DNA from: a virus
Strand: one strand, 5' to 3'
Length of the DNA: 64,000 nucleotides
IMG/VR virus record: IMGVR_UViG_3300028837_003734
Span: 12,070-76,069 of that record
Under the pieces are notes generated by a model that worked only from the letters and a program-made list of their open reading frames with translations, had not been told where the DNA came from and did not search any database. Position 1 is the stretch's first letter, and each line of letters begins with the position of its first letter. The position numbers and the translations under genes were made by a program. Shown piece after piece: positions 4,643 through 25,789 of this stretch.

Positions 4643-4852
4643 ACCGTTCGCAAATCAAAAGAATAAGATGCATAGAGATAATAAATGGGAGACCTATGAG
4701 CAGAACAAGAAAAAATTATCCCATAAATATGGTTGGGATTCGAAACAGAATCCGGGCAGATATGGGCGGGCAGTAAAGTTGTTATGCAAGATAATGAAAT
4801 TATAAGATCCAATAAAAAGGAACTTTTTAAGGGAGAGGAGAGGGATGTAGCG

Positions 4853-5038
4853 ATGAGAAAAACATCTGGAGGAGCAAAGAAGCACGGCCGGAATAAGGAA
4901 AAATGCCAAAAATATAAGGAAGCGAATCGGAGGGAAGAGAATAAGATCAGGAAATGGAAGAAGCTAATTAAGAATTTATCCCCAGATAATAGCATGAGAA
5001 GACAGTTGGAAAAACGGATTAAAGAGGTGGAGAGATGA
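4853..5038 (+). CDS. Small basic hypothetical protein
   Basis: MRKTSGG... start within ORF 4733-5038. Confidence 0.5.
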   Translation: MRKTSGGAKKHGRNKEKCQKYKEANRREENKIRKWKKLIKNLSPDNSMRRQLEKRIKEVER

Positions 5039-5277
5039 GAAAGTTCGAGAATCTATTAATTGTGCTTATAGTCATAATGGTTTTAGTAGGATTATGGGTC
5101 TCGTATTTGAGCTTTAAGATAGAAAAGAATGAACTTCTAATTAAGATTTTAATTAGCCGGGATGGGACCAACGTAGAGCTGATTGGAGCAATACAGGACA
5201 GGCTGGAGAGGCTGGAAGAAAGGTACAGTGATTTTAAAGAGAACAGAGGATTGCTACTGTTAAGAGGATATCCTTGA
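5035..5277 (+). CDS. Hypothetical membrane-anchored protein
   Basis: N-terminal hydrophobic helix; ATGA coupling. Confidence 0.6.
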   Translation: MRKFENLLIVLIVIMVLVGLWVSYLSFKIEKNELLIKILISRDGTNVELIGAIQDRLERLEERYSDFKENRGLLLLRGYP

Positions 5278-5330
5278 CTAATGTATTGAGCAAATAAGAG
5301 GCAGAAAACTAAATTAGAAAGGAAGGCAGT

Positions 5331-5564
5331 ATGCAGAAAGCGATTAGAAAATATCTCAAGAAAGAGGCTGAAAGGATAGATAGTAGCATGGGTAAGGACT
5401 ATATTAATCAGACCTTCGATATGCTCGATTCTGAGATCGACAAGGCAAAGAGAAGGGAAATTAAGAGGGCCAGAAGGAAGAAGTTAGGAGAATGGAAGCG
5501 AATAGAGAAAATGAACTGCGGGCATGATAAGAAAAGAAGGTTAAAAGGGAGGTCGAGAAGATGA
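5331..5564 (+). CDS. Hypothetical protein
   Basis: ORF with SD. Confidence 0.55.
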   Translation: MQKAIRKYLKKEAERIDSSMGKDYINQTFDMLDSEIDKAKRREIKRARRKKLGEWKRIEKMNCGHDKKRRLKGRSRR

Positions 5565-14039: not shown

Positions 14040-14990
14040 ATAAAATTGATGAAAATTAAATAACAATATAATGCTCCTGCAAGAGCATTAGAATGTTATT
14101 AAAAATTGATGAAAAATAAAGATATGCCTAAAAATGAAGTTCTGTAATGCTTATTATGTAAGGCTTTCGGAGTGCAAAAAACAAAATTAATTGTACCTCT
14201 AGAAAAAAGACTAAAAATATTGAAACGAAACGCTAAAAAAGTATAAAAAAAGAGAAGTACAATTTGGGTTTGTAAGGGGTCAAACGCAGTGCTCAAAAAT
14301 ATCTTATTTTATTTTTAAGGAAAAAAACAGCATTAAAAATGACCTCTGCAAAACTCTAATCTACACCTTAAAAAAAAAAAAAACGAAATTCGGAAAATCA
14401 CAAAAAAATGAGCATTAGAATCGAGTCTTGCAAAAACAAGATCTAATGCTCCAAAATCTCTTAAAAATATTTTAAGGAAAATCTGAGCATTAGAAATGAG
14501 TCTTGCAGAACCGAAATGTAGTGCTCTAAAAATGCTAAAAATAAAAATAGGGATTTTTCGAGAGATAGAAATAGCCACCTGCAAAACCGAATTCTAGATC
14601 TCTTTTTTTTCCCGGAAACTAAATTTAAAAATTCTGAAAACGAAAGACGTTTTTTAACCTCTTGCAGGAGCATTAGAAAGACGATAGAAAAAGCACGAAA
14701 AATAAAATAAGGGAATTTCTGCGGGTGCTGAAACGCTTATAAATAAAGAGTTACAAGACACTAAAAAAGGTTTTAATTGTACTTCTCTAAAACTACGCCA
14801 AAAATAAAATAACTAACGGTAAAAATGAAGGTAAAAAAGAGATGTAGGTTTTGGGTCTGCAAGGGGTCAAATGCAATGCTCGAAAAAACCTTAAAATATT
14901 TTTAAGGAAAAAAAGAGAAGTAGTTTTACTGTTTGCGAATGACAGAATGTTGCTGCCCAAAATATTGTAAAAATAAAATAAGAAAATTTG
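14040..14990. repeat. Non-coding array of 42-43-bp imperfect palindromes centred on TGCA, with A-tract spacers
   Basis: Example GAGCATTAGA-N9-TGCA-N9-TCTAATGCTC at 14410; related units at 14252, 14328, 14485, 14560, 14839 and 14915. Confidence 0.75.
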
Positions 14991-15003
14991 GGAGAAAAAG
15001 TAT

Positions 15004-15879
15004 TTGAAAATTGGCATTTTTGATATTGATAGCAAATATCATAATTTAGCTTTGATGAAATTATCAGCATGGCATAAGAATTTTGGGGATCATACGGAAA
15101 TATATTTGCCATTAATGAAAAAAACTTATGATAAGGTTTATGTTTCAAAGATATTTTCAAAGGGAAATATTAAAGAAGAATATATTCCTGAAAATGCTAT
15201 TATCGGCGGATCGGGTTTTAATCTAAAAACTGTTTTACCTTATGATATGGAACATATTAAGCCAGATTATTCTCTTTATAATCTTGATTATTCTCTGGGC
15301 TTTACTACCCGGGGCTGTATAAGAAATTGCAAATTTTGTATTGTAAGGGAAAAGGAAGGCTACATAAAGGAACACGCAGAAGTGGAGGAATTTTTAAATT
15401 CTAAATCAAATGTAGTGGTTCTGTTGGATAATAACTTTTTAGCCTTACCGAGCCATATTAAAAAATTAAAAAAATATATAGATAAGGGCTGGATAATGGA
15501 TTTTAACCAGGGGCTGGATATAAGATTGATTAATGAAGAGAATGCTGAATTGCTGGCCAGAGTGAAACATCTAAAGCAAATACATTTTGCCTGGGACCTG
15601 ATGGATTATGAAAAAGAAGTAAAAGAAGGATTAAAAATATTATTTAAAGCAAGAGTCAAGCCGTATAGGATAATGGTATATATCTTATGCAACTACAATA
15701 CTAATTTTAAAGAAGATATGTATCGGTTTGAAGAATTAATCAATTTAGGCATAGATCCCTTTATAATGATTTATGAAAATGGGAATAAAAAAATAAGAGA
15801 CTTTGCCCGGTGGGTAAATAAGAGATTATATAAGGTTTGCGATTGGGATAATTATAAAAGGAGCAGTGATAATAAATGA
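15004..15879 (+). CDS. Radical SAM protein
   Basis: TTRGCIRNCKFC (CxxxCxxC), DNNF, DFNQGLDIR. Confidence 0.85.
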   Translation: MKIGIFDIDSKYHNLALMKLSAWHKNFGDHTEIYLPLMKKTYDKVYVSKIFSKGNIKEEYIPENAIIGGSGFNLKTVLPYDMEHIKPDYSLYNLDYSLGFTTRGCIRNCKFCIVREKEGYIKEHAEVEEFLNSKSNVVVLLDNNFLALPSHIKKLKKYIDKGWIMDFNQGLDIRLINEENAELLARVKHLKQIHFAWDLMDYEKEVKEGLKILFKARVKPYRIMVYILCNYNTNFKEDMYRFEELINLGIDPFIMIYENGNKKIRDFARWVNKRLYKVCDWDNYKRSSDNK

Positions 15880-16122
15880 ATCTTATTAAATGGTTAAAAA
15901 TAAATAGCGATATAAAATTAGGAAAACTTAAAAACAGGGATTAAAAAGGATGATGTAATAGTAATTGAATCTGTATCTCCTATTGGAGATTATATTAAAA
16001 AAAATTTTGTAGATCAGTGGCGTAAGATATTTCCGGATAATCTCATTATATTCCTTGCCGGAGATGTTAATTTAGAATATCTGGATGAGAAAGAAATGAA
16101 TAGAGCTGGATGGTATAGATAA
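15876..16122 (+). pseudogene. Frameshifted small hypothetical gene
   Basis: MNLIKW... stops after 22 aa; the +1 frame continues IKKDDVIVI...EMNRAGWYR to a TAA abutting the next ATG. Confidence 0.45.
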
Positions 16123-16559
16123 TGAGGAATGTAGCGAGGGGCGGTTACCGGGAAGATTTAAAACAATATTTCAGGTCAAAGATGGAGGCTAATATTTGCA
16201 GGTATTATAAACTTACTGAGATCGACTATATCTATGAACCGAAAGAATTTGAATTTAAGACCATTAAACGTGGTAATCGATATTATAAACCAGATTTTTA
16301 TTTACCTATAATAGATTTATGGGTAGAATGTAAGGGATGGTTTCGACCAGAAGATAAAACTAAACTTAGACGATTCAAGAAATATTATCCAAAATTATTC
16401 AAGAAATTAAGATTTATAATACCGGATAAATATTCAAGAAGTAAATCAAATGGTGAGATGATTAAATTCTTGTGTGATGATTTAGGAATAGATTTTGATG
16501 ATATAATAAGCTACAAGGAAATAGAAGAGCACGGTAAGCTGATCCCCGGGTGGGAATAA
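16122..16559 (+). CDS. PD-(D/E)XK nuclease
   Basis: FRSKMEAN, YEP, YKPDFYL, VECKG. Confidence 0.8.
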   Translation: MRNVARGGYREDLKQYFRSKMEANICRYYKLTEIDYIYEPKEFEFKTIKRGNRYYKPDFYLPIIDLWVECKGWFRPEDKTKLRRFKKYYPKLFKKLRFIIPDKYSRSKSNGEMIKFLCDDLGIDFDDIISYKEIEEHGKLIPGWE

Positions 16560-16578
16560 TTGGCTAACCCAAATTATG

Positions 16579-16754
16579 AGGCATAGGTAGTTCCTAAAAA
16601 ATACATTGGCGTAAATTACTACCCGCCTTTAAAATCATAAGGCATAAGTGGTTCCTATAAACAATTCTGAACAATTGAAATTACCACTCGCCTTAATTAA
16701 AAAACATAGGGCATAGGCAGTTCCTATAATTCAGGTTTGATTTACTGCCCGCCC
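16579..16754 (+). ncRNA. Three tandem covarying hairpins with variable loops
   Basis: GGCATA-stem-TCCTA-variable-stem'-CGCC at 16579, 16639 and 16709. Confidence 0.8.
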
Positions 16755-16770
16755 GAAAAAGGAGGTAAAA

Positions 16771-18765
16771 ATGTTAGCGACAATTCGGTTATTTAAGGCC
16801 TTGCCAATTAAAACAAAACAAAAAAAATCACCCACTGAAGAATTATTGAAAGAAACTATTAAACGGGGGTTTATCTTTTCCCCGACAGTTATTAGTAACT
16901 ATTCGGAAAGTCAATTACATGAATTCATAAAATTAGTTGGAGAAATAGAAGGGATAACTAAAGAAGAGCTCAACGCCTCTTTTCATAAATCTTGGAAGAA
17001 GGTAAAGGAAGCAGACATAGAGCAGTTGGTTGTAGAGCAGGTTGCCCATTATCTCACGACTTATGGCAAAAAAGACCCCATAAGATATCTATTTCAAAAG
17101 GAACATTTGGAGAATTGGAAAGTACAAAATCTATCTGAAAAAATATTTAGCTTAAAGGATTTTGATACAAGTAAGATTTACGATAAAGATTACGTCTACA
17201 TTCCTAAAGAAATATTGGAAATCCCTGAAATAAATGTAGATGAAATAAAATTGGTAGTTATAAAAGGATATACCAAACATGAAATTAAAGATAAATTGAT
17301 GAAACTGCTTAATTCTGGGATTGCCTTAAAAGAAGACACGATAAATGATGTTGTAGATGTGGCTTTGTTTGTAGATATAAATGAAAAAGAAATCGAGACT
17401 GTAAAAAATAAGGAAGTCAGGGTTATTTTATATGAATATCTGAATCTGATTCCCGAAAAACCTGTCGAATTCCTTCGGTATCTTGTTTATGTTGCAACAG
17501 ATAAAACATTATTGATTAAAAACAAAGAATTAATAGATGAGATAAAGGAAAAGAAGAATATCAAGATTGTTAAACTTTTTAGAGATTATGATAAAAAATA
17601 CGGATTAGAAAAATTAGCGGAAATATTTCTGAGATTCAAGCCCCTATTTTTGGGTTTTCGTACTAATAGAGAATTAAAAACAATTATTAATCGGATAAGG
17701 AAACTTGCCATCAAATATCATCGGCCAATGCCAGAAGACTTTTTAAATTGTGTAACAGCAAAAATCAAAAAGGGTGAGAAAATCGATAGGGATAAATTAG
17801 AAAGTGAATTAGAAAGGGTTAATGTTTGGAGAAAAGTAAGATTGGCTTATGCCTTAAAATTCAGGACGAAAGAAGACATCGACTCGATTTTATACAGAAT
17901 ACGGAATGGAAAAGCGTTCGCTGAAGACTTCTATTTTAAGAACAAAGAGATGGCAAAAAATATTTTAGATATTGTCTTAGATTCTACCATTAAAGACATT
18001 GGGAAAAATCTAAAAGGCAAGAAAATTTATATCCCCGATTTTATGCATTATGCTTTACCTACCTCCTTAAAACAATTCACGGGTAACTTTCCCTCAGGGA
18101 CGTATATCTCTGTTCCACAGGATATGATTGTTGGAATTCATTGGGGAAATGTTAAACATAATAGGATAGATTTAGACCTTTCTTTAATCTCTCCATCAGT
18201 TGGAAAGATTGGCTGGGATGCTAATTATAGGACAAACGAAGGGAATATTTTATTTTCAGGTGATGTTACCGACGCGCGTGAACCTAAAGGGGCTACAGAA
18301 TTATTTTATGTGGAAAGACAATCAAAAGATGAGTTCATCCTTTTCTTAAACTACTTTAATTATGATAGTGAAATAAAAGTCCCTTTTAAAATAATTGTTG
18401 CTAAAGAGAAGGTCAAAAATTTCAGAGAAAATTATATGGTTAATCCCAATAACATTGTTTCAGTTGTCCAGTCTGAGATTAGTCAAAAACAAAAGATACT
18501 GGGATTATTGATTACTACAGTAAATAGAAGTAGATTCTATTTTGCCGAGACATCAATAGGCATGTCAATCACGTCACGTAATAATGAAGTTGCTGAAAAT
18601 GCCAGAAAATATCTTATAAATTTCTATCAGAATAGTATAGAACTCAAAGATATTTTATTGAAAGCTGGAGCTAAATTAGTTGACGATAAGGATAAGAGCG
18701 ATATTGATTTATCTCCTGAAGTATTAGAAAAAGATACAATTTTGAATTTACTAATTGAAAAATAA
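16771..18765 (+). CDS. Large helical (ROT/TROVE-like) + TerD-like domain protein
   Basis: C-terminal GIHW...DLDLS...GW....SGDVTDA...GATE (TerD-like); N-terminal F.KSW..V...EQVAHYLTTYG; long helical middle. Confidence 0.65.
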   Translation: MLATIRLFKALPIKTKQKKSPTEELLKETIKRGFIFSPTVISNYSESQLHEFIKLVGEIEGITKEELNASFHKSWKKVKEADIEQLVVEQVAHYLTTYGKKDPIRYLFQKEHLENWKVQNLSEKIFSLKDFDTSKIYDKDYVYIPKEILEIPEINVDEIKLVVIKGYTKHEIKDKLMKLLNSGIALKEDTINDVVDVALFVDINEKEIETVKNKEVRVILYEYLNLIPEKPVEFLRYLVYVATDKTLLIKNKELIDEIKEKKNIKIVKLFRDYDKKYGLEKLAEIFLRFKPLFLGFRTNRELKTIINRIRKLAIKYHRPMPEDFLNCVTAKIKKGEKIDRDKLESELERVNVWRKVRLAYALKFRTKEDIDSILYRIRNGKAFAEDFYFKNKEMAKNILDIVLDSTIKDIGKNLKGKKIYIPDFMHYALPTSLKQFTGNFPSGTYISVPQDMIVGIHWGNVKHNRIDLDLSLISPSVGKIGWDANYRTNEGNILFSGDVTDAREPKGATELFYVERQSKDEFILFLNYFNYDSEIKVPFKIIVAKEKVKNFRENYMVNPNNIVSVVQSEISQKQKILGLLITTVNRSRFYFAETSIGMSITSRNNEVAENARKYLINFYQNSIELKDILLKAGAKLVDDKDKSDIDLSPEVLEKDTILNLLIEK

Positions 18766-18772
18766 ATATTTA

Positions 18773-18993
18773 CCTGCCCTGCGTGCATTGCGGTAACAAT
18801 GCTGAAAGTGGAACTAAGGTTAACCGGCGAAAGGGCGTCGTCTTAGTCTGGGATAAGTTACTAAATGTCGGCCAGAGGCTAAGTCCCGACCGTCTTGCAA
18901 AGGTTAGTAGCTGGATATTGCCTTTGCGTAGCGACCCTAAAAATGCGTTGGCGGAAAAAAGTAACAAAGCAGGTTTAACCCTGTCAGGGCAGG
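18773..18993 (+). ncRNA. ~220-nt GC-rich structured RNA (raiA-motif/GOLLD-3'-domain-like candidate)
   Basis: 9-bp terminal stem CCTGCCCTG/CAGGGCAGG, GCATTG/CAATGC hairpin, T-arm-like 3' hairpin; GC content above flanks. Confidence 0.65.
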
Positions 18994-19082
18994 CGAAAAA
19001 GAAATAGAAAGAATAATTACAAATTTTCGTGATGCCATATTAAACTATAATAATCAAAATTGGGAACGGAAAAAGGGGCTAG

Positions 19083-19349
19083 ATGATAATAATATTTAGG
19101 AGTCTGTCTATCGCTATACTTATTTGGATGCTAATATTTTTTCTACATGGCTTCTTTAGAGAGCTTTATAAGATTTTAAAAGAAAGATATGAAGATTGGG
19201 AAAATAAGAAAAGGATTTTACATGAAGTAGACAAATTAATTAAAGAAGGTTTTTTTGAGCGGGAAAATAGAAAAAAAGGAAGTATGAGAATAACGGTAAA
19301 AGGAAATAAAATAGTTATAAAAGAAGAAAAAGGGGGAATAAGGGAATAA
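19083..19349 (+). CDS. Membrane-anchored hypothetical protein
   Basis: N-terminal TM helix. Confidence 0.55.
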   Translation: MIIIFRSLSIAILIWMLIFFLHGFFRELYKILKERYEDWENKKRILHEVDKLIKEGFFERENRKKGSMRITVKGNKIVIKEEKGGIRE

Positions 19350-19374
19350 CAATAACAATGGATTGATTCTGTTT

Positions 19375-19403
19375 TTGACAGAAATCAATTAGTTTGATAA
19401 AAT
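19375..19403 (+). promoter_or_regulatory. Sigma70-like promoter of the DNA-modification block
   Basis: TTGACA-N17-TAAAAT. Confidence 0.7.
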
Positions 19404-19445
19404 TCAATTAGACAATCGAATAAGATAAGGTCTAAAAGTTAGGTC

Positions 19446-19505
19446 AATGGCCTAGGCTCTTTAGGATTATTTAAGAATAATTTGAAAGGGTTTAGGTCAT
19501 TTTTT
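19446..19505 (+). terminator. Long leader hairpin with T-run (attenuator-like)
   Basis: AATGGCCTAGGCTCTTT...AAAGGGTTTAGGTCATT followed by TTTT. Confidence 0.55.
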
Positions 19506-19527
19506 ATTTCTTAGGAGTAAACCATCA

Positions 19528-20223
19528 ATGGACAATAGAAGGCATGTAGTTAATGTATCAGGGGGTAAAGATAGTGTAGCGATGTTGCTTAGAATGTTAG
19601 AGCTGGGCCAAAGAGTTGACGAGATCCTATTTATGGACTCTCAATTGGAATTATCAGATACCTACAAATATATAGATAAGTTAGAAAATCATATCGGAAG
19701 GAAGATAACCAGACTAAGGTCGGAAAAGAATTTTTTTAGGCTTTTCTATACTCTAATTACTCGAGGCAAGATGGAAGGAAGAATCAGAGGTTTCCCCATG
19801 GTAAATTTCCCTTGCTGGTGGGAGCGGGACGGCAAGGGCAAGATAATGGACCGACATAATCGAGGGCAGATTGTCTATGTAGGATATGCAGCAGACGAGG
19901 AGAGGAGACTGAAAAGATTTTCTGATAAAGGTAAAAATATTGAATTTAGGTTCCCTTTGATCGAATGGGGATGGGAAGAGAAGGATTGTTTTAAATATCT
20001 AGAAAAGAAGGCCCTAGTTAATCCCATTTACAGGCAGGGATATAAGAGAAATGGCTGCTGGTTATGCCCCAGGCAAAACAAAGAAGCTCTGAGATGCTTA
20101 TATAATAATTATCCGAATTTATGGAGAATATTAAGGACATTGGAAGAAGATAGCCCCTTGGGATTCGGGTTTCATTCTCCTCTGAATAAGCTTGAGGAGG
20201 AATGGAATAAGAAATATTTTTAA
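19528..20223 (+). CDS. PAPS-reductase-family (adenine nucleotide alpha-hydrolase) protein
   Basis: SGGKDS PP-loop, GYAADE..R, FPL, RNGCWLCP. Confidence 0.85.
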   Translation: MDNRRHVVNVSGGKDSVAMLLRMLELGQRVDEILFMDSQLELSDTYKYIDKLENHIGRKITRLRSEKNFFRLFYTLITRGKMEGRIRGFPMVNFPCWWERDGKGKIMDRHNRGQIVYVGYAADEERRLKRFSDKGKNIEFRFPLIEWGWEEKDCFKYLEKKALVNPIYRQGYKRNGCWLCPRQNKEALRCLYNNYPNLWRILRTLEEDSPLGFGFHSPLNKLEEEWNKKYF

Positions 20224-20242
20224 AACTAGGGAGATATTTTGA

Positions 20243-21679
20243 ATGAAATATCCCGAAGATTTTATAAATAAAATAATATGTACTGATTGCCGGGAAGGCA
20301 TGAGAGATATTCTGGATGGGAGTATTGATTTGATGGTAACGGATCCCCCTTATGGTTACGCATTCATGCAACGGAATTGGGATAAAGCTTTAGTAAATAT
20401 GGGCACTTGGAGGGAATGTTTAAGGGTGTTAAAACCAGGAGCCTTTGCCTTTATTATGTGTGCTCCCAGACAAGACGTATTAAGCAGACAGATAATAAAT
20501 CTAGAGGAAGCGGGATTTATAACTGGATTTACAAGTCTATATTGGGCCTATGCCAGTGGTTTCCCGAAGGCAAGTAATATTGGGAAAATGGTAGATAAGA
20601 GATTGGGAGTAGAAAGAGAAAATGGAATTAAAGTACCTAGACACTATCCGGACCAACAGCATTGGGGGAAACCTACAAGTAGAAACATAATAGCACCATT
20701 TACTCCAGGCGGAAAATATGAAGGAGAAATTGAAATTGCTATGAAAGAAATAACAATTCCCGCTACTCCCCAAGCTAAAGTTCTAGATGGCTCTTACAGT
20801 GGATTCCAACCTAAACCTGCAGTAGAAGTTATCCTTGTGGTGATGAAACCATTATCAGAGAAAACTTATATGGAGCAGGCCCTAAAGAATAGGAAAGGGA
20901 TAACTTGGCTTGATAAGGGGAGGATACCTTATAAGGGGAAAAATGATTTTATAATTTCCCACCATAATAAACAATTAAAAGAGAAGGATAAATCAACGGG
21001 AATGTTTGGAGCTACAAATGGATTCGGATTACTCGAATCAAATATATCCCAAGGCCGTTTCCCTGCCAATCTTTTAGTAAGTGATGATGTATTAAATGAT
21101 GGAAATAAACATTCATCAAAACATACTCGATTACGAGAACGATTTAAACAGTATAGACAGAGAAGCAATATTTATATGGATACAAATAAGATGCTTAATT
21201 GGAAGAATATTTATTACGATTCTGGCTCATTTTCTCGTTATTTTGACCTCGATAAGTGGTGGGTAGAGAAGATCAAACAACTACCTGAATCAGTCCAAAA
21301 GACTTTTCCTTTTCTAATTGTGCCAAAGGCAAGCAAGACTGAGAAGAACAGAGGATGTGAGAAATTAGAGGAGAAAGCAAGGGCAAATATAAATAAAATG
21401 ATGGGAGAAGCAGGGAATTTTAAAACTGGGAGTGGCAATGTAAGGACTGTTAAATTTAAAAACCACCATCCCACCGTGAAACCAATCAAACTAATGAGCT
21501 ATTTAATTATTTTAGGCAGCCGTACAAATGATATTATACTGGATCCCTTTGTAGGAAGCGGGACGACTTGTATTGCAGCTAAGATGCTAAACAGAAGATA
21601 TATCGGATTTGATAATGACGGGGGATATGTCGAGATTGCACGGTCTAGAGTAAGAGCGATAGAAGCAGTTTTAATTTAA
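20243..21679 (+). CDS. N6/N4 DNA methyltransferase (beta class)
   Basis: TDPPY, HPTVKP, DPFVGSGTT. Confidence 0.92.
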   Translation: MKYPEDFINKIICTDCREGMRDILDGSIDLMVTDPPYGYAFMQRNWDKALVNMGTWRECLRVLKPGAFAFIMCAPRQDVLSRQIINLEEAGFITGFTSLYWAYASGFPKASNIGKMVDKRLGVERENGIKVPRHYPDQQHWGKPTSRNIIAPFTPGGKYEGEIEIAMKEITIPATPQAKVLDGSYSGFQPKPAVEVILVVMKPLSEKTYMEQALKNRKGITWLDKGRIPYKGKNDFIISHHNKQLKEKDKSTGMFGATNGFGLLESNISQGRFPANLLVSDDVLNDGNKHSSKHTRLRERFKQYRQRSNIYMDTNKMLNWKNIYYDSGSFSRYFDLDKWWVEKIKQLPESVQKTFPFLIVPKASKTEKNRGCEKLEEKARANINKMMGEAGNFKTGSGNVRTVKFKNHHPTVKPIKLMSYLIILGSRTNDIILDPFVGSGTTCIAAKMLNRRYIGFDNDGGYVEIARSRVRAIEAVLI

Positions 21680-23995: not shown

Positions 23996-24955
23996 TGCAA
24001 AAGGAGGTTGAAATCGAGTTAGAATTTATCGAATTATTTGCAGGGATAGGGGGTTTTAGATATGGACTTGAAAATTGTAGAAATGTTTTACAAAGCAAGA
24101 CTGCCAAGAATATACAAAAAACTATGCCCTGCGTTGAGAAAGGGGAGGCAAGGTTTGCTTGTGTTTTTGCCAACGAATGGGATAAATACGCCTGCAAAAT
24201 CTACCGAAAAAACTTTGGGGAAGGAGAATTATATGAAGGAGACATTAGAAAAATCCCAGCCGGGTCTATTCCAAACCACGACCTTCTCACTGCGGGATTC
24301 CCTTGTTAGGCTTTTCTCAATTGCTGGAAAACGAAAAGGATTCAACGATACTCGCGGAACTCTGTTCTTCGAAATATGCAGGATTGCGGAAATTAAGAAA
24401 CCTCGTTTACTTCTGCTTGAAAACGTCAAAGGGCTACTTAATCACAAAAAGGGGGACACTTTTAGAATTATCCTCGATTCGCTTTCAGAATTGGGGTATG
24501 ACTGTGAATGGGAGGTGTTTAACAGCAAGAATTTCGGAGTCCCGCATAACAGGGAAAGGGTGTTCATTGTCGGACATCTTAGAGGAAGAAGCGGACAAAA
24601 AATATTTCCTATCGGAGGAATCAGAGAAGCTCCTCGTAAACAGGATGGGATTGACTTTAAGATAATACACAATATATATGGAGGCTTCGGGGAAAAAACG
24701 GTTAGAGAATTTAAAAAATATTCTCCAACAATTAGGACATCCAAGGGCGGAGGACACCTGCCCATGATAGTGAAAGATAATAAAATACGAAAGATAACCC
24801 CGATAGAATGTGAAAGATTACAAGGCTTTCCTGATAACTGGACGAAAGGAATAAGTGATATTCAGAGATTAAAGTGTTTAGGGAATGCAGTTACAGTGAA
24901 TGTGGTTGAAGAGATAGGAAAGAGAATTGCCAAAGTTCAGCAGGAGATATTTTAA
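23992..24955 (+). pseudogene. Disrupted C5-cytosine DNA methyltransferase
   Basis: Motif I ELFAGIGG and GFPC end at TAG 24307-24309; FSIAG, ENVKG, RER, RLQGFP and GNAV continue in the +1 frame. Confidence 0.85.
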
Positions 24956-25789
24956 ATGAAGTATCCTGAAGATTTTATAAATAGAATAATATGTGGGGAC
25001 CATTTAATAGCAATTAAAGATATTCTCAATGATGTAATTGATTTAACAGTAACAAGTCCACCCTATGAGGAATTGAGAGACTATAGAGGGTTTATATTTG
25101 ATCATAAAAAATTGATAAAAGAATTGTTTAGAATTACTAAGATAGGTGGGGTATTGGTTTGGGTGGTAGGAGACCAAACCATTGATGGTAGCGAATCAGG
25201 TAATTCTTTTCGGCAAGCTCTTTACGCTAAAGAGATTGGATTTAATTTACACGATACAATGATTTATGAGAAGAATAATTGCAGATACCCAGCAGGAAAA
25301 AGATCTGTAAGATATAGTAATTTTTTTGAATATATGTTTGTATTTTCAAAAGAAAAACCTAAAACAATAAATCTTATTAAAGATAGAAAAAATAGATGGG
25401 CAGGAACTAAAGGCTTTGGTTTACAAAGTTTTAGGCAGAAAAATGGGTCATTATTAAGGGAAAATCATAATGAAATTTCAAGAAGAAAGAGGACCGATTT
25501 TTATGGATGTAGGAGTAATATCTGGCGTATGAATACAGGATATGGATATAGCACAAAAGACAAAATAGCTTTTGAACATCCTGCAATATTTCCAGAACAG
25601 CTAGCACAAGACCATATAATCAGTTGGAGCGATAAAAATGATATTGTTTTAGATCCGATGTGTGGAAGCGGAACAACTTGCAAGATGGCAAAAAAATTGG
25701 GTAGGAGATTTATTGGAATTGATATAGGTCCAGAATATTGTGAAATTGCAAGAAAAAGGGTTAATTCTATTCCAGAATCTTTATTTTAG
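24956..25789 (+). CDS. N4/N6 DNA methyltransferase
   Basis: TSPPY, HPAIFP, DPMCGSGTT. Confidence 0.92.
   Translation: MKYPEDFINRIICGDHLIAIKDILNDVIDLTVTSPPYEELRDYRGFIFDHKKLIKELFRITKIGGVLVWVVGDQTIDGSESGNSFRQALYAKEIGFNLHDTMIYEKNNCRYPAGKRSVRYSNFFEYMFVFSKEKPKTINLIKDRKNRWAGTKGFGLQSFRQKNGSLLRENHNEISRRKRTDFYGCRSNIWRMNTGYGYSTKDKIAFEHPAIFPEQLAQDHIISWSDKNDIVLDPMCGSGTTCKMAKKLGRRFIGIDIGPEYCEIARKRVNSIPESLF

What the first reader, a model, noticed from the sequence alone, without database searches (positions are those of the whole stretch)
16579..16754. Three tandem covarying hairpin RNAs with variable loops directly upstream of a TROVE/TerD-like gene
Seen: each unit is GGC-ATA-stem-TCCTA-variable-stem'-C-GCC, with compensatory stems GGTAGT/ACTACC, AGTGGT/ACCACT and GGCAGT/ACTGCC, a fixed ATA/C internal loop, and unrelated loop sequences of about 13-22 nt. 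Established: Ro60/TROVE proteins bind bulged terminal helices of Y RNAs. Inference: a mini-array of Y-RNA-like or guide-like RNAs loaded on the downstream protein, with the variable loop possibly giving specificity. I know of no description of this arrangement.
Basis: partly seen in the sequence, partly recalled or inferred. Interest (0 to 1): 0.8.

Follow-up and report, generated by a model that had tools for sequence, protein, structure and literature searches.

The report
Phage Y-RNA-like hairpins with TerD protein
Three small folded RNAs in front of an unannotated phage gene belong to a large, apparently undescribed RNA family found beside this one protein family in phages, bacteria and archaea, which points to an RNA-protein particle built like, but not detectably related to, Ro60 with its Y RNAs.

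Summary
Three tandem units (16577-16756, + strand) share a two-helix "handle": outer stem, AUA/C internal loop, a 6-bp inner stem, then an invariant UCCUA. The loops between are variable.

A covariance model built from them finds the handle 1-7 times beside the homologous gene. This holds in all 69 viral loci with upstream DNA and in most of 79 bacterial or archaeal loci. Every hit is on the gene's strand, and covariation is heavy. In three whole bacterial genomes the only hit lies beside the gene.

In relatives the variable loop carries a circularly permuted tRNA body, which matches Rfam YrlA below threshold. Alternatively, a capped handle replaces the anticodon loop of a complete tRNA. The window's units are the minimal, cargo-less form.

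The 664-aa protein has a helical N-terminal part and a C-terminal TerD fold. TROVE kinship is not shown: sequence tests are negative and structural matches to Ro60 are weak.

Best reading (about 0.7): these are Y-RNA-like small RNAs bound by the adjacent protein. The guide-RNA idea has no support. No paper or Rfam family was found. The scan has flagged this same system before on other DNA (31 notes, at least 26 genomes).

The parts
16577..16630 (+). Handle RNA unit 1. Outer stem (G)AGGC/GCCU(U), AUA/C internal loop, inner stem GGUAGU/ACUACC, invariant UCCUA, 21-nt variable loop.
   Evidence: Sequence; R1 match 56.7 bits, E about 1e-14; fold.
16638..16695 (+). Handle RNA unit 2. Outer stem UAAGGC/GCCUUA, inner stem AGUGGU/ACCACU. 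The variable loop holds a small 5-bp hairpin with the 6-nt loop CUGAAC.
   Evidence: Sequence; R1 match 64.2 bits, E about 4e-17; fold.
16707..16756 (+). Handle RNA unit 3. Outer stem GGGC/GCCC, inner stem GGCAGU/ACUGCC, 17-nt variable loop. It ends 5 nt before the ribosome-binding site.
   Evidence: Sequence; R1 match 54.2 bits, E about 6e-14.
16760..16765 (+). Shine-Dalgarno AGGAGG of the 664-aa gene. It is not paired within any unit.
   Evidence: Sequence; fold leaves it single-stranded.
16771..18765 (+). 664-aa protein P0001, the presumed RNA partner. It belongs to an unannotated family: 1440 clusters at 50% identity with E<=1e-3. No Pfam or PHROG match.
   Evidence: AlphaFold2 model pLDDT 90.5, pTM 0.89.
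16771..18105 (+). N-terminal part (aa 1-445): a small alpha/beta head followed by helical repeats (aa about 165-415). Fold affinity to the Ro60 HEAT ring is weak and unproven.
18109..18615 (+). TerD-fold beta-sandwich domain (aa about 447-615). DLDLS and SGD..T.A....GA.E are kept; the acidic GDGDDE calcium motif is replaced.

Best explanation
The three hairpins are the minimal, cargo-less members of a large family of small non-coding 'handle' RNAs. They are most likely transcribed with the downstream gene on the + strand and cut at the A/U-rich linkers into stable RNAs of about 50 nt. The adjacent 664-aa protein (helical repeats plus TerD fold) would then bind their conserved two-helix handle, forming a ribonucleoprotein. 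The nearly invariant handle features are the C-G pair at the outer stem, A7/A9 of the AUA loop, the bulged C, the G-C and U-A closing pairs, a U.U apposition and UCCUA. The plan is that of Ro60 with its Y RNAs: a protein-binding stem plus an exchangeable module. In relatives that module is a hairpin, an anticodon-loop-like hairpin, a circularly permuted tRNA body, or a whole tRNA with the handle in place of its anticodon loop. The likely role lies in tRNA or RNA surveillance, repair, or manipulation of host RNA enzymes during infection. Shown here: the structure, its conservation, strand specificity, exclusive co-location with the gene, and the tRNA-like relatives. Inferred: physical binding, processing and biological role.
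For: (1) Covariation: 150 units, 94.4% of cells paired, inner helix 99.6%, 10 of 12 pairs with double changes, 0 of 500 shuffles as high, slid registers 36-51% paired. G.U pairs are tolerated (about 50 cells), while non-pairs are nearly absent from the inner helix. That fits an RNA read from the + strand.

(2) Association: 187 R1 hits in 72 viral homologue loci and 89 in 79 genome loci, all on the gene's strand. Every viral locus with upstream DNA has at least one. The association holds down to 25-30% protein identity. In genomes of 13.7, 6.9 and 7.5 Mb the only R1 hit lies beside the gene. The own virus record holds only these three.

(3) Not merely a leader. Copies lie downstream of the gene in L135, L138, L163, L173, L199 and S-CRM01. 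In L004 a NUMOD3 endonuclease gene and a Lar-like ORF separate the array from the gene by 1.2 kb.

(4) Y-RNA likeness. Some units carry a T arm, a closed acceptor stem and a D arm, and match Rfam YrlA RF02553 over the full model at 35-49.5 bits. In 14 of 14 loci tested, a tRNA-model hit of 49-68 bits carries a 41-48-nt anticodon-loop insert that is a capped, circularly permuted handle.

(5) Context. The gene sits inside same-strand tRNA arrays in cultured cyanophages S-CRM01 and S-CBWM1, with handle units beside it. Canonical tRNAs lie within 2.5 kb in 17 of 64 viral loci, and all 103 are on the gene strand. RtcB lies within the flanks in 5 loci, including the same-strand cluster RtcB-handles-gene in L233.

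(6) The protein model is confident (pLDDT 90.5), with many invariant Arg, Lys, His and Tyr residues.
Confidence: 0.7

Rival explanations
1. Cis-regulatory leader. The hairpins stay in the 5' UTR of the 664-aa gene's mRNA and act as operator sites where the protein, or a small ligand, controls its own translation or mRNA stability.
For: In most loci the array lies directly upstream of the gene on the same strand, and the last unit ends a few nucleotides from the ribosome-binding site. UCCU resembles an anti-Shine-Dalgarno sequence and could pair with the AGGAGG (sequence). Tandem aptamers are known for some riboswitches (own knowledge).
Against: Copies lie downstream of the gene in at least six loci. 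In L004 they are separated from it by two inserted ORFs. There can be up to seven copies. Relatives carry tRNA bodies with their own acceptor ends, which implies independent, processed RNAs. The ribosome-binding site is not sequestered in the predicted fold. No riboswitch family matches: preQ1-I scores 15.7 bits against a gathering score of 39.
Confidence: 0.12
2. The RNAs are substrates or free-standing decoys rather than stable partners. In one version the protein is an enzyme that processes or modifies them. In the other the RNAs act alone as tRNA-part mimics that soak up host RNases or tRNA-targeting defence nucleases, and the gene linkage reflects co-regulation only.
For: Relatives display tRNA bodies, and a few display anticodon-loop-like hairpins: 9 seven-nt loops among 138 small units, 8 with U at position 2. 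The module is embedded in tRNA arrays. RtcB is an occasional neighbour.
Against: The invariant part is the handle, not the cargo, and the window's units carry no tRNA part at all. That is hard to explain unless something reads the handle. The only component that always co-occurs with the handle is this protein. No catalytic fold or motif was found in the protein.
Confidence: 0.12
3. Guide RNAs. The protein is loaded with the hairpins and the variable loops base-pair with target RNAs or DNAs to give specificity.
For: Loops vary while the scaffold is fixed. The units form arrays.
Against: The longest complementarity of the three loops to the 64-kb phage sequence (10-11 nt) equals that of shuffled loops, which average 10.5-11.3. 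In relatives the loop position is filled by folded modules (GC hairpins, tRNA bodies) rather than by unstructured guide-like sequence. Related phages share loop segments such as CAUUGGCGUAA, so the loops are conserved rather than diversifying.
Confidence: 0.04
4. DNA-level element, for example a replication origin, a packaging site, or hairpin promoters formed in single-stranded DNA.
For: Tandem inverted repeats in an intergenic region of a phage.
Against: All of more than 450 hits are on the gene's strand. G.U pairs are tolerated but A.C pairs are not. The same handle is fused to tRNA-like RNAs. It also occurs in bacterial chromosomes beside the same gene.
Confidence: 0.02

Closest known systems
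Ro60 (Rsr; TROVE + vWA) with Y RNAs, especially YrlA/YrlB of bacteria and phages (Rfam RF02553; Chen et al. 2014, PMC4201824; phage phiLo Ro60 with Yrl1/Yrl2, PMC12135203)
   Same: One to several small RNA genes lie beside, and on the strand of, one large helical-repeat protein gene. The RNA is modular: a stem formed by the 5' and 3' ends with an internal loop, plus an exchangeable module. In relatives that module is a tRNA-like body (T arm, closed acceptor stem, D arm) with the protein-side stem in the anticodon position. These score on the YrlA model over its full length. Cargo-less short forms exist, comparable to YrlB. The system occurs in phages and is occasionally linked to RtcB.
   Different: The protein has no TROVE signature, and its C-terminal domain is a TerD fold, not vWA. 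The handle sequence (GGC-AUA-RGNNGU-UCCUA ... UAC-NNCY-C-GCC) lacks the GNCGAA Rsr-binding motif. No unit reaches the YrlA gathering score. A circularly permuted topology also exists, in which a whole tRNA carries the capped handle in place of its anticodon loop; I know of no such form for Y RNAs. The window's units have no tRNA-like part.
TerD-domain proteins (tellurite-resistance TerD/TerE; PDB 2KXT, 3IBZ, 2QZ7)
   Different: Known TerD proteins are single-domain proteins of about 190 residues tied to calcium binding and stress resistance, with no RNA partner. Here the domain is fused to about 440 N-terminal residues. It is not recognised by the Pfam TerD model at E up to 5 in any of 44 members, and the acidic calcium-binding motif is replaced.
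MXAN_6230/SCO0854 family RING-domain proteins (NCBIfam NF041916)
   Same: 36 of 44 family members match positions 543-623 of this 842-position model, best E 1.3e-10. This region is the TerD-like segment.
   Different: Only that segment matches: 22 bits against a cut-off of 600 for P0001. No RING finger is present. Whether the helical parts are related was not tested.
Permuted tRNA genes and tRNA-like ncRNAs (tmRNA; permuted tRNAs of red algae)
   Same: Relatives of these units contain circularly permuted tRNA bodies.
   Different: There is no anticodon loop and no evidence of maturation to a decoding tRNA. The conserved element is the non-tRNA handle. The window's units contain no tRNA part (ARAGORN finds 0 tRNA genes).

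Membership tests
Y RNA / YrlA (Rfam RF02553) | Match to the Rfam covariance model at or above its gathering score (69 bits) | tested here: not met
   There is no YrlA hit on window 15500-17500 at E<=10, and no family at gathering score on the whole window. Relatives with tRNA-like cargo reach only 35-49.5 bits.
Y RNA / YrlA (Rfam RF02553) | Stem formed by the 5' and 3' ends with an internal loop or bulge that holds the protein site, plus a variable module | tested here: met
   A two-helix stem with an AUA/C internal loop is supported by covariation. The loop is variable.
Y RNA / YrlA (Rfam RF02553) | Rsr/Ro60-binding motif GNCGAA(N)G (vertebrate GGUCCGA) on the 5' strand (PMC4201824) | tested here: not met
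   The 5' strand consensus is nnGGC-A(U)A-RGNNGU-UCCUA. No GNCGAA is present in any of the three units.
Y RNA / YrlA (Rfam RF02553) | tRNA-like domain (T arm, D arm, acceptor-like stem) | tested here: not met
   The window units have 17-25-nt loops and ARAGORN finds nothing. The feature is met only in relatives.
Y RNA / YrlA (Rfam RF02553) | Encoded within a few kb of a TROVE-domain Ro60 orthologue | tested here: not met
   PF05731 has no match in the 76-kb virus record. The adjacent protein has no TROVE hit.
Y RNA / YrlA (Rfam RF02553) | Physically bound by the neighbouring protein | not testable with these tools
   This needs RIP, gel shift or a structure. No RNA run holds the locus.
Ro60 / TROVE protein family (Pfam PF05731) | Sequence match to the TROVE profile | tested here: not met
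   0 of 44 family members match at E<=5. hhalign of the family alignment A3 against a 26-sequence TROVE alignment A6 gives probability 0.07%, E 0.67.
Ro60 / TROVE protein family (Pfam PF05731) | HEAT-repeat ring fold | tested here: inconclusive
Ro60 / TROVE protein family (Pfam PF05731) | C-terminal vWA domain with a MIDAS site closing the ring | tested here: not met
   The C-terminal domain is a TerD-fold beta-sandwich. True Ro60 relatives carry PF05731 plus PF25045; this family carries neither.
TerD domain (tellurite-resistance TerD/TerE) | TerD beta-sandwich fold | tested here: met
TerD domain (tellurite-resistance TerD/TerE) | Match to the Pfam TerD sequence profile and the acidic calcium-binding motif (GDN..GEGDGDDE) | tested here: not met
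   No Pfam TerD hit in 44 members at E<=5. The sequence keeps DLDLS and SGD, but the acidic run is replaced by a stretch of the form A.EPKGATE.
preQ1-I riboswitch (RF00522) / cis-regulatory riboswitch | Match to the aptamer model at its gathering score | tested here: not met
   15.7 bits against a gathering score of 39, E 5.9, and the match spans two units.

The most novel reading that the evidence does not exclude
This is an undescribed ribonucleoprotein system, independent of or only anciently related to Ro60/Y RNA. One conserved RNA handle, read by a helical-plus-TerD protein, presents interchangeable cargo. The cargo can be nothing (as here), small hairpins, anticodon-loop-like hairpins, circularly permuted tRNA bodies, or a whole tRNA with the handle in its anticodon position. 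The system is spread through hundreds of phage lineages and several bacterial and archaeal phyla. Phages would use it to protect, repair or hijack the host's tRNA and RNA-processing machinery.
Probability: 0.5. Interest if true: 0.85.

Novelty: new variant of a known kind. Interest (0 to 1): 0.74.

Why it matters
Ro60/Y RNA is the only well-studied case of a protein paired with tRNA-mimicking small RNAs in bacteria and phages, and its function there is still unclear. Here a second protein family shows no detectable sequence kinship to Ro60 and has a different C-terminal domain. It travels with its own RNA family in more than a thousand protein clusters. That RNA family follows the same modular logic and adds a circularly permuted tRNA form.

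If the pair forms a particle, then protein-held tRNA mimics are a recurrent solution in phage-host conflict, not a Ro60 peculiarity. Two cultured cyanophage systems (S-CRM01 g174, S-CBWM1 gp22) make this directly testable. It would also correct annotations: the handle units are unannotated or overlaid by a probably spurious ORF (S-CRM01 g173c), and the tRNA-embedded form is likely called a pseudo-tRNA or an intron-bearing tRNA.

For this window specifically, the array is the stripped-down form. It shows that the handle alone is kept under selection, so the handle is the part that matters to the protein.

Tried and rejected
- **blastn against phage records:** the locus (window 15000-19500) has no match.
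- **Loose DNA pattern scan of viral contigs:** it returned only single, probably chance matches and was not used.
- **Thermodynamics:** the z-score of the three-unit stretch is -1.8, not significant by itself.
- **Promoter and terminator scan of 15800-19600:** promoter-like sites are at chance level and no terminator was found. It is uninformative about transcript ends.
- **Expression:** no RNA holder is listed among public runs for window 16100-17600. The DNA occurs in marine-sediment metagenomes.
- **TROVE kinship by sequence:** Pfam on P0001 and on 44 members, the own genome, and hhalign against a TROVE alignment built from mycobacteriophage Bxz1 Ro relatives were all negative.
- **PDB sequence profile search:** no hit at E<=1.
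- **Foldseek of the N-terminal model:** no match.
- **ESM Atlas:** only unnamed viral clusters and one automatically named 'TerD family' cluster, all below 0.9.
- **preQ1 riboswitch idea:** prompted by a 15.7-bit hit and nearby radical-SAM and PAPS-reductase genes, and rejected.
- **Guide-RNA idea:** loop complementarity is at chance.
- **RtcB operon link:** RtcB is not adjacent in five whole genomes and lies within the flanks in only 5 of about 150 loci. The link is real but rare.
- **Search for a true SCO0854-family protein:** the five genomes returned only this family's own gene.
- **GC-rich element downstream of the gene:** it is not conserved beside homologues, so it is not part of the system.
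- **Burroughs & Aravind 2016 paper on RNA-repair systems:** it is not held, so I could not check whether a ROT/TROVE-TerD architecture is described there.
- **Complex prediction:** not used, because it cannot take RNA.

Full report
**1. What is in the window**

The + strand between the stop of a phage endonuclease-I-like gene (16122-16559; Pfam Phage_endo_I) and the AGGAGG/ATG of a 664-aa ORF (16771-18765) holds three tandem units. Each reads GGC-AUA-six nt-UCCUA-variable-(A/U)UU-six nt'-C-GCC.

The inner stems are GGUAGU/ACUACC, AGUGGU/ACCACU and GGCAGU/ACUGCC. They differ at three positions and all changes are compensated. The exact pattern GGCATA-N6-TCCTA occurs only three times in the 64 kb, all here. 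No tRNA gene and no Rfam family is found.

The window is part of a 76-kb linear virus record, estimated 80% complete, from marine-sediment metagenomes.

**2. The motif is a conserved, strand-specific RNA coupled to the gene**

The nine closest homologues of the protein in IMG/VR (49-78% identity) all carry 2-4 copies of the same unit on the gene's strand. I aligned 23 units (A2) and counted pairs. The inner helix is 100% paired with four of six pairs compensated. The outer helix is 85% paired with five of six compensated. No shuffle of 500 reaches the covariation score.

A covariance model (R1) was searched over further loci:

| Set searched | Hits | Strand |
|---|---|---|
| 72 further viral homologue loci | 187 | all on the gene's strand |
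| 79 loci from bacterial and archaeal assemblies | 89 | all on the gene's strand |

- There are 1-7 hits per viral locus, nearly all within about 600 nt upstream of the gene.
- The only viral loci without a hit are three in which the gene is cut at the locus edge.
- The association holds down to 25-30% protein identity.
- On 150 units, 94.4% of cells pair (99.6% in the inner helix) and 10 of 12 pairs change on both sides. Slid registers fall to 36-51% paired.
- G.U pairs are tolerated while non-pairs are almost absent from the inner helix. Together with the absolute strand bias, this indicates a transcript and not a DNA element.
- In whole genomes of 13.7, 6.9 and 7.5 Mb the only R1 hit is the one beside the gene. 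The own virus record holds only the three units.

The consensus is nnnGGC-A(U)A-RGNNGU-UCCUA(UUAAA)...(A)AU-U-AC-NNCY-C-GCCnnn. The following are invariant or nearly so: C6, A7, A9, G15, U16, U17, C18, C19, U20, the U before the 3' strand, A154, C155, the bulged C160 and G161. The loop between the inner-stem strands is 15-100 nt, median 29.

**3. Relatives show what kind of RNA this is**

In some loci the variable loop is 60-90 nt and folds into a circularly permuted tRNA body. Its order is anticodon-stem 3' strand, variable region, T arm, acceptor stem closed by a loop, U8/A9, D arm, anticodon-stem 5' strand. These units match Rfam YrlA (RF02553) over the full model at 35-49.5 bits, E down to 4e-8, below the gathering score of 69.

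A third topology also exists. In L003, which I noticed first, and in 14 of 14 loci tested, the Rfam tRNA model hits at 49-68 bits an RNA of about 110 nt. Its anticodon loop is replaced by a 41-48-nt insert. That insert is the same handle circularly permuted, with its outer stem capped by a 3-5-nt loop.

Intermediate forms carry a T arm plus an acceptor hairpin, or a single GC hairpin. A few small units display 7-nt loops with U at position 2: 8 of 9, against 8 of 27 in shuffles.

So one constant handle carries exchangeable cargo. The three units of this window are the minimal, cargo-less form. Unit 2 has only a 5-bp hairpin with a 6-nt loop.

**4. The protein**

P0001 has no Pfam or PHROG match. 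It belongs to a large unannotated family: 1440 clusters at 50% identity with E<=1e-3, and 897 at 1e-30. All named members are called 'hypothetical'.

The AlphaFold2 model is confident, with pLDDT 90.5 and pTM 0.89. Residues about 447-615 form a TerD-fold beta-sandwich:

- Foldseek probability to TerD structures is 1.0.
- The Pfam TerD profile does not see the domain.
- The acidic calcium-binding motif is replaced.
- 36 of 44 members hit the TerD-like segment of NCBIfam RING_SCO0854.

The other tests do not show kinship either. Foldseek finds nothing. Pfam TROVE matches 0 of 44 members. hhalign against a TROVE alignment gives probability 0.07%. TROVE kinship is therefore unproven: it is negative by sequence and inconclusive by fold.

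**5. Context**

- In the cultured cyanophages S-CRM01 (g174) and S-CBWM1 (gp22) the homologue sits inside same-strand tRNA arrays.
- R1 finds three or four units upstream and one just downstream of g174. The upstream units lie under an annotated minus-strand ORF, g173c. R1 finds one unit upstream of gp22.
- Canonical tRNAs lie within 2.5 kb in 17 of 64 viral loci, and all 103 are on the gene's strand.
- RtcB is within the flanks in five loci. One is the same-strand cluster RtcB-handles-gene-HEAT protein in a Desulfobacterales assembly.
- RtcB is not adjacent in five whole genomes.
- In L004 a NUMOD3 homing-endonuclease-like ORF and a Lar-like ORF lie between the array and the gene.
- Copies lie downstream of the gene in six loci.

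The last two points argue against an obligatory 5' leader.

**6. Mechanism**

The best reading (about 0.7) has the following steps. The units are transcribed with the gene and cut at the A/U-rich linkers into small stable RNAs; in relatives with tRNA ends, RNase P and RNase Z presumably do the cutting. The protein then binds the handle through its invariant nucleotides. The cargo position projects outward and, where present, engages tRNA-recognising enzymes. This is the plan of Ro60 with YrlA/YrlB (PMC4201824; phage example PMC12135203).

The structure, its conservation, the strand bias, the exclusive co-location with the gene and the tRNA-like relatives are shown. Binding, processing and role are inferred.

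The rivals are:
- a cis-regulatory leader (0.12);
- free-standing decoys or enzyme substrates (0.12);
- guide RNAs (0.04), given that loop complementarity to the phage equals shuffled controls;
- a DNA element (0.02).

**7. Comparison and novelty**

The system works like Ro60/Y RNA but fails its membership tests:
- no TROVE signature;
- no vWA domain;
- no GNCGAA Rsr site;
- below the YrlA gathering score;
- no tRNA-like domain in this window's units.

No Rfam family covers the handle. Full-text searches for Y RNA with TerD, TROVE with TerD, and YrlA with phage found no description. One possibly relevant paper (Burroughs and Aravind 2016) is not held.

Earlier notes of this scan reached the same reading on other genomes: 31 notes in at least 26 genomes. 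I reproduced their main claims here from this window's own data: co-location, YrlA-like cargo, the permuted tRNA form, the occasional RtcB link, and no detectable Ro60 kinship.

I class it as a new variant of a known kind.

Noticed in passing
window 18772-18996 (+): A GC-rich stretch of about 225 nt lies directly after the stop of the 664-aa gene in an otherwise AT-rich phage. It is closed by the helix CCUGCCCUG/CAGGGCAGG and folds at -75.5 kcal/mol (z -1.8). It has no Rfam match, and the overlapping 74-aa GTG ORF has no Pfam hit. It is not found beside any homologue locus held, so it is probably a separate structured RNA or an inserted element.
   Followed up: partly
window 14100-15000: This intergenic region holds several families of direct repeats of 47-90 nt (D3-D5). 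They contain long hairpins (for example GAGCAUUAGA...UCUAAUGCUC) followed by A/T-rich promoter-like sequence. They may be repeated regulatory or terminator-promoter cassettes, or an origin.
   Followed up: no
window 19375-19403 and 19420-19500: A near-consensus sigma-70 promoter (TTGACA, 17 nt, TG-extended TAAAAT; 11 of 12 matches) is followed by a conserved hairpin-rich leader. The same sequence stands downstream of the homologous gene in L002 and partly in L001. It is probably the start of the next transcription unit (PAPS reductase and DNA methyltransferases).
   Followed up: no
L003:2836-2949; also L004:1695-1808, L142:2302-2412, L203:2299-2410 and bacterial loci L222-L259: These are complete tRNA-shaped RNAs (Rfam tRNA 49-68 bits) whose anticodon loop is replaced by a 41-48-nt capped, circularly permuted copy of the handle. 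ARAGORN does not call them.
   Followed up: yes
L004:1964-2995: A Lar-like small ORF and a NUMOD3-motif (homing-endonuclease-like) ORF are inserted between the handle RNA array and the protein gene.
   Followed up: yes
L006/L007 about 2580-2730 and downstream of the gene (about 5150-5400): Tandem repeats of about 37-38 nt, of the form GAGCGAGCC-N10-12-AGAAACCCA-N8, flank the RNA-protein module on both sides. Their nature is unknown: repeat peptides, binding sites or a CRISPR-like array.
   Followed up: no
L297 (Synechococcus phage S-CRM01, NC_015569) 2747-2971 and 4828-4881: The annotated minus-strand ORF g173c (locus 2791-2937) lies over three handle RNA units on the plus strand and is probably a spurious call. 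The homologue g174 sits in the middle of the phage's tRNA array.
   Followed up: partly
L244:6847-8511 and L233:6972-8624: In two bacterial loci a HEAT-repeat protein of about 550 aa directly follows the gene on the same strand. The two share 28% identity. It may be a further component in cellular versions of the system.
   Followed up: partly
window 20230-20281, 24943-24994 and 21518-21570, 25628-25680: Duplicated gene starts and internal segments (92% and 72% identical) indicate paralogous DNA methyltransferase genes about 4.7 kb apart.
   Followed up: no
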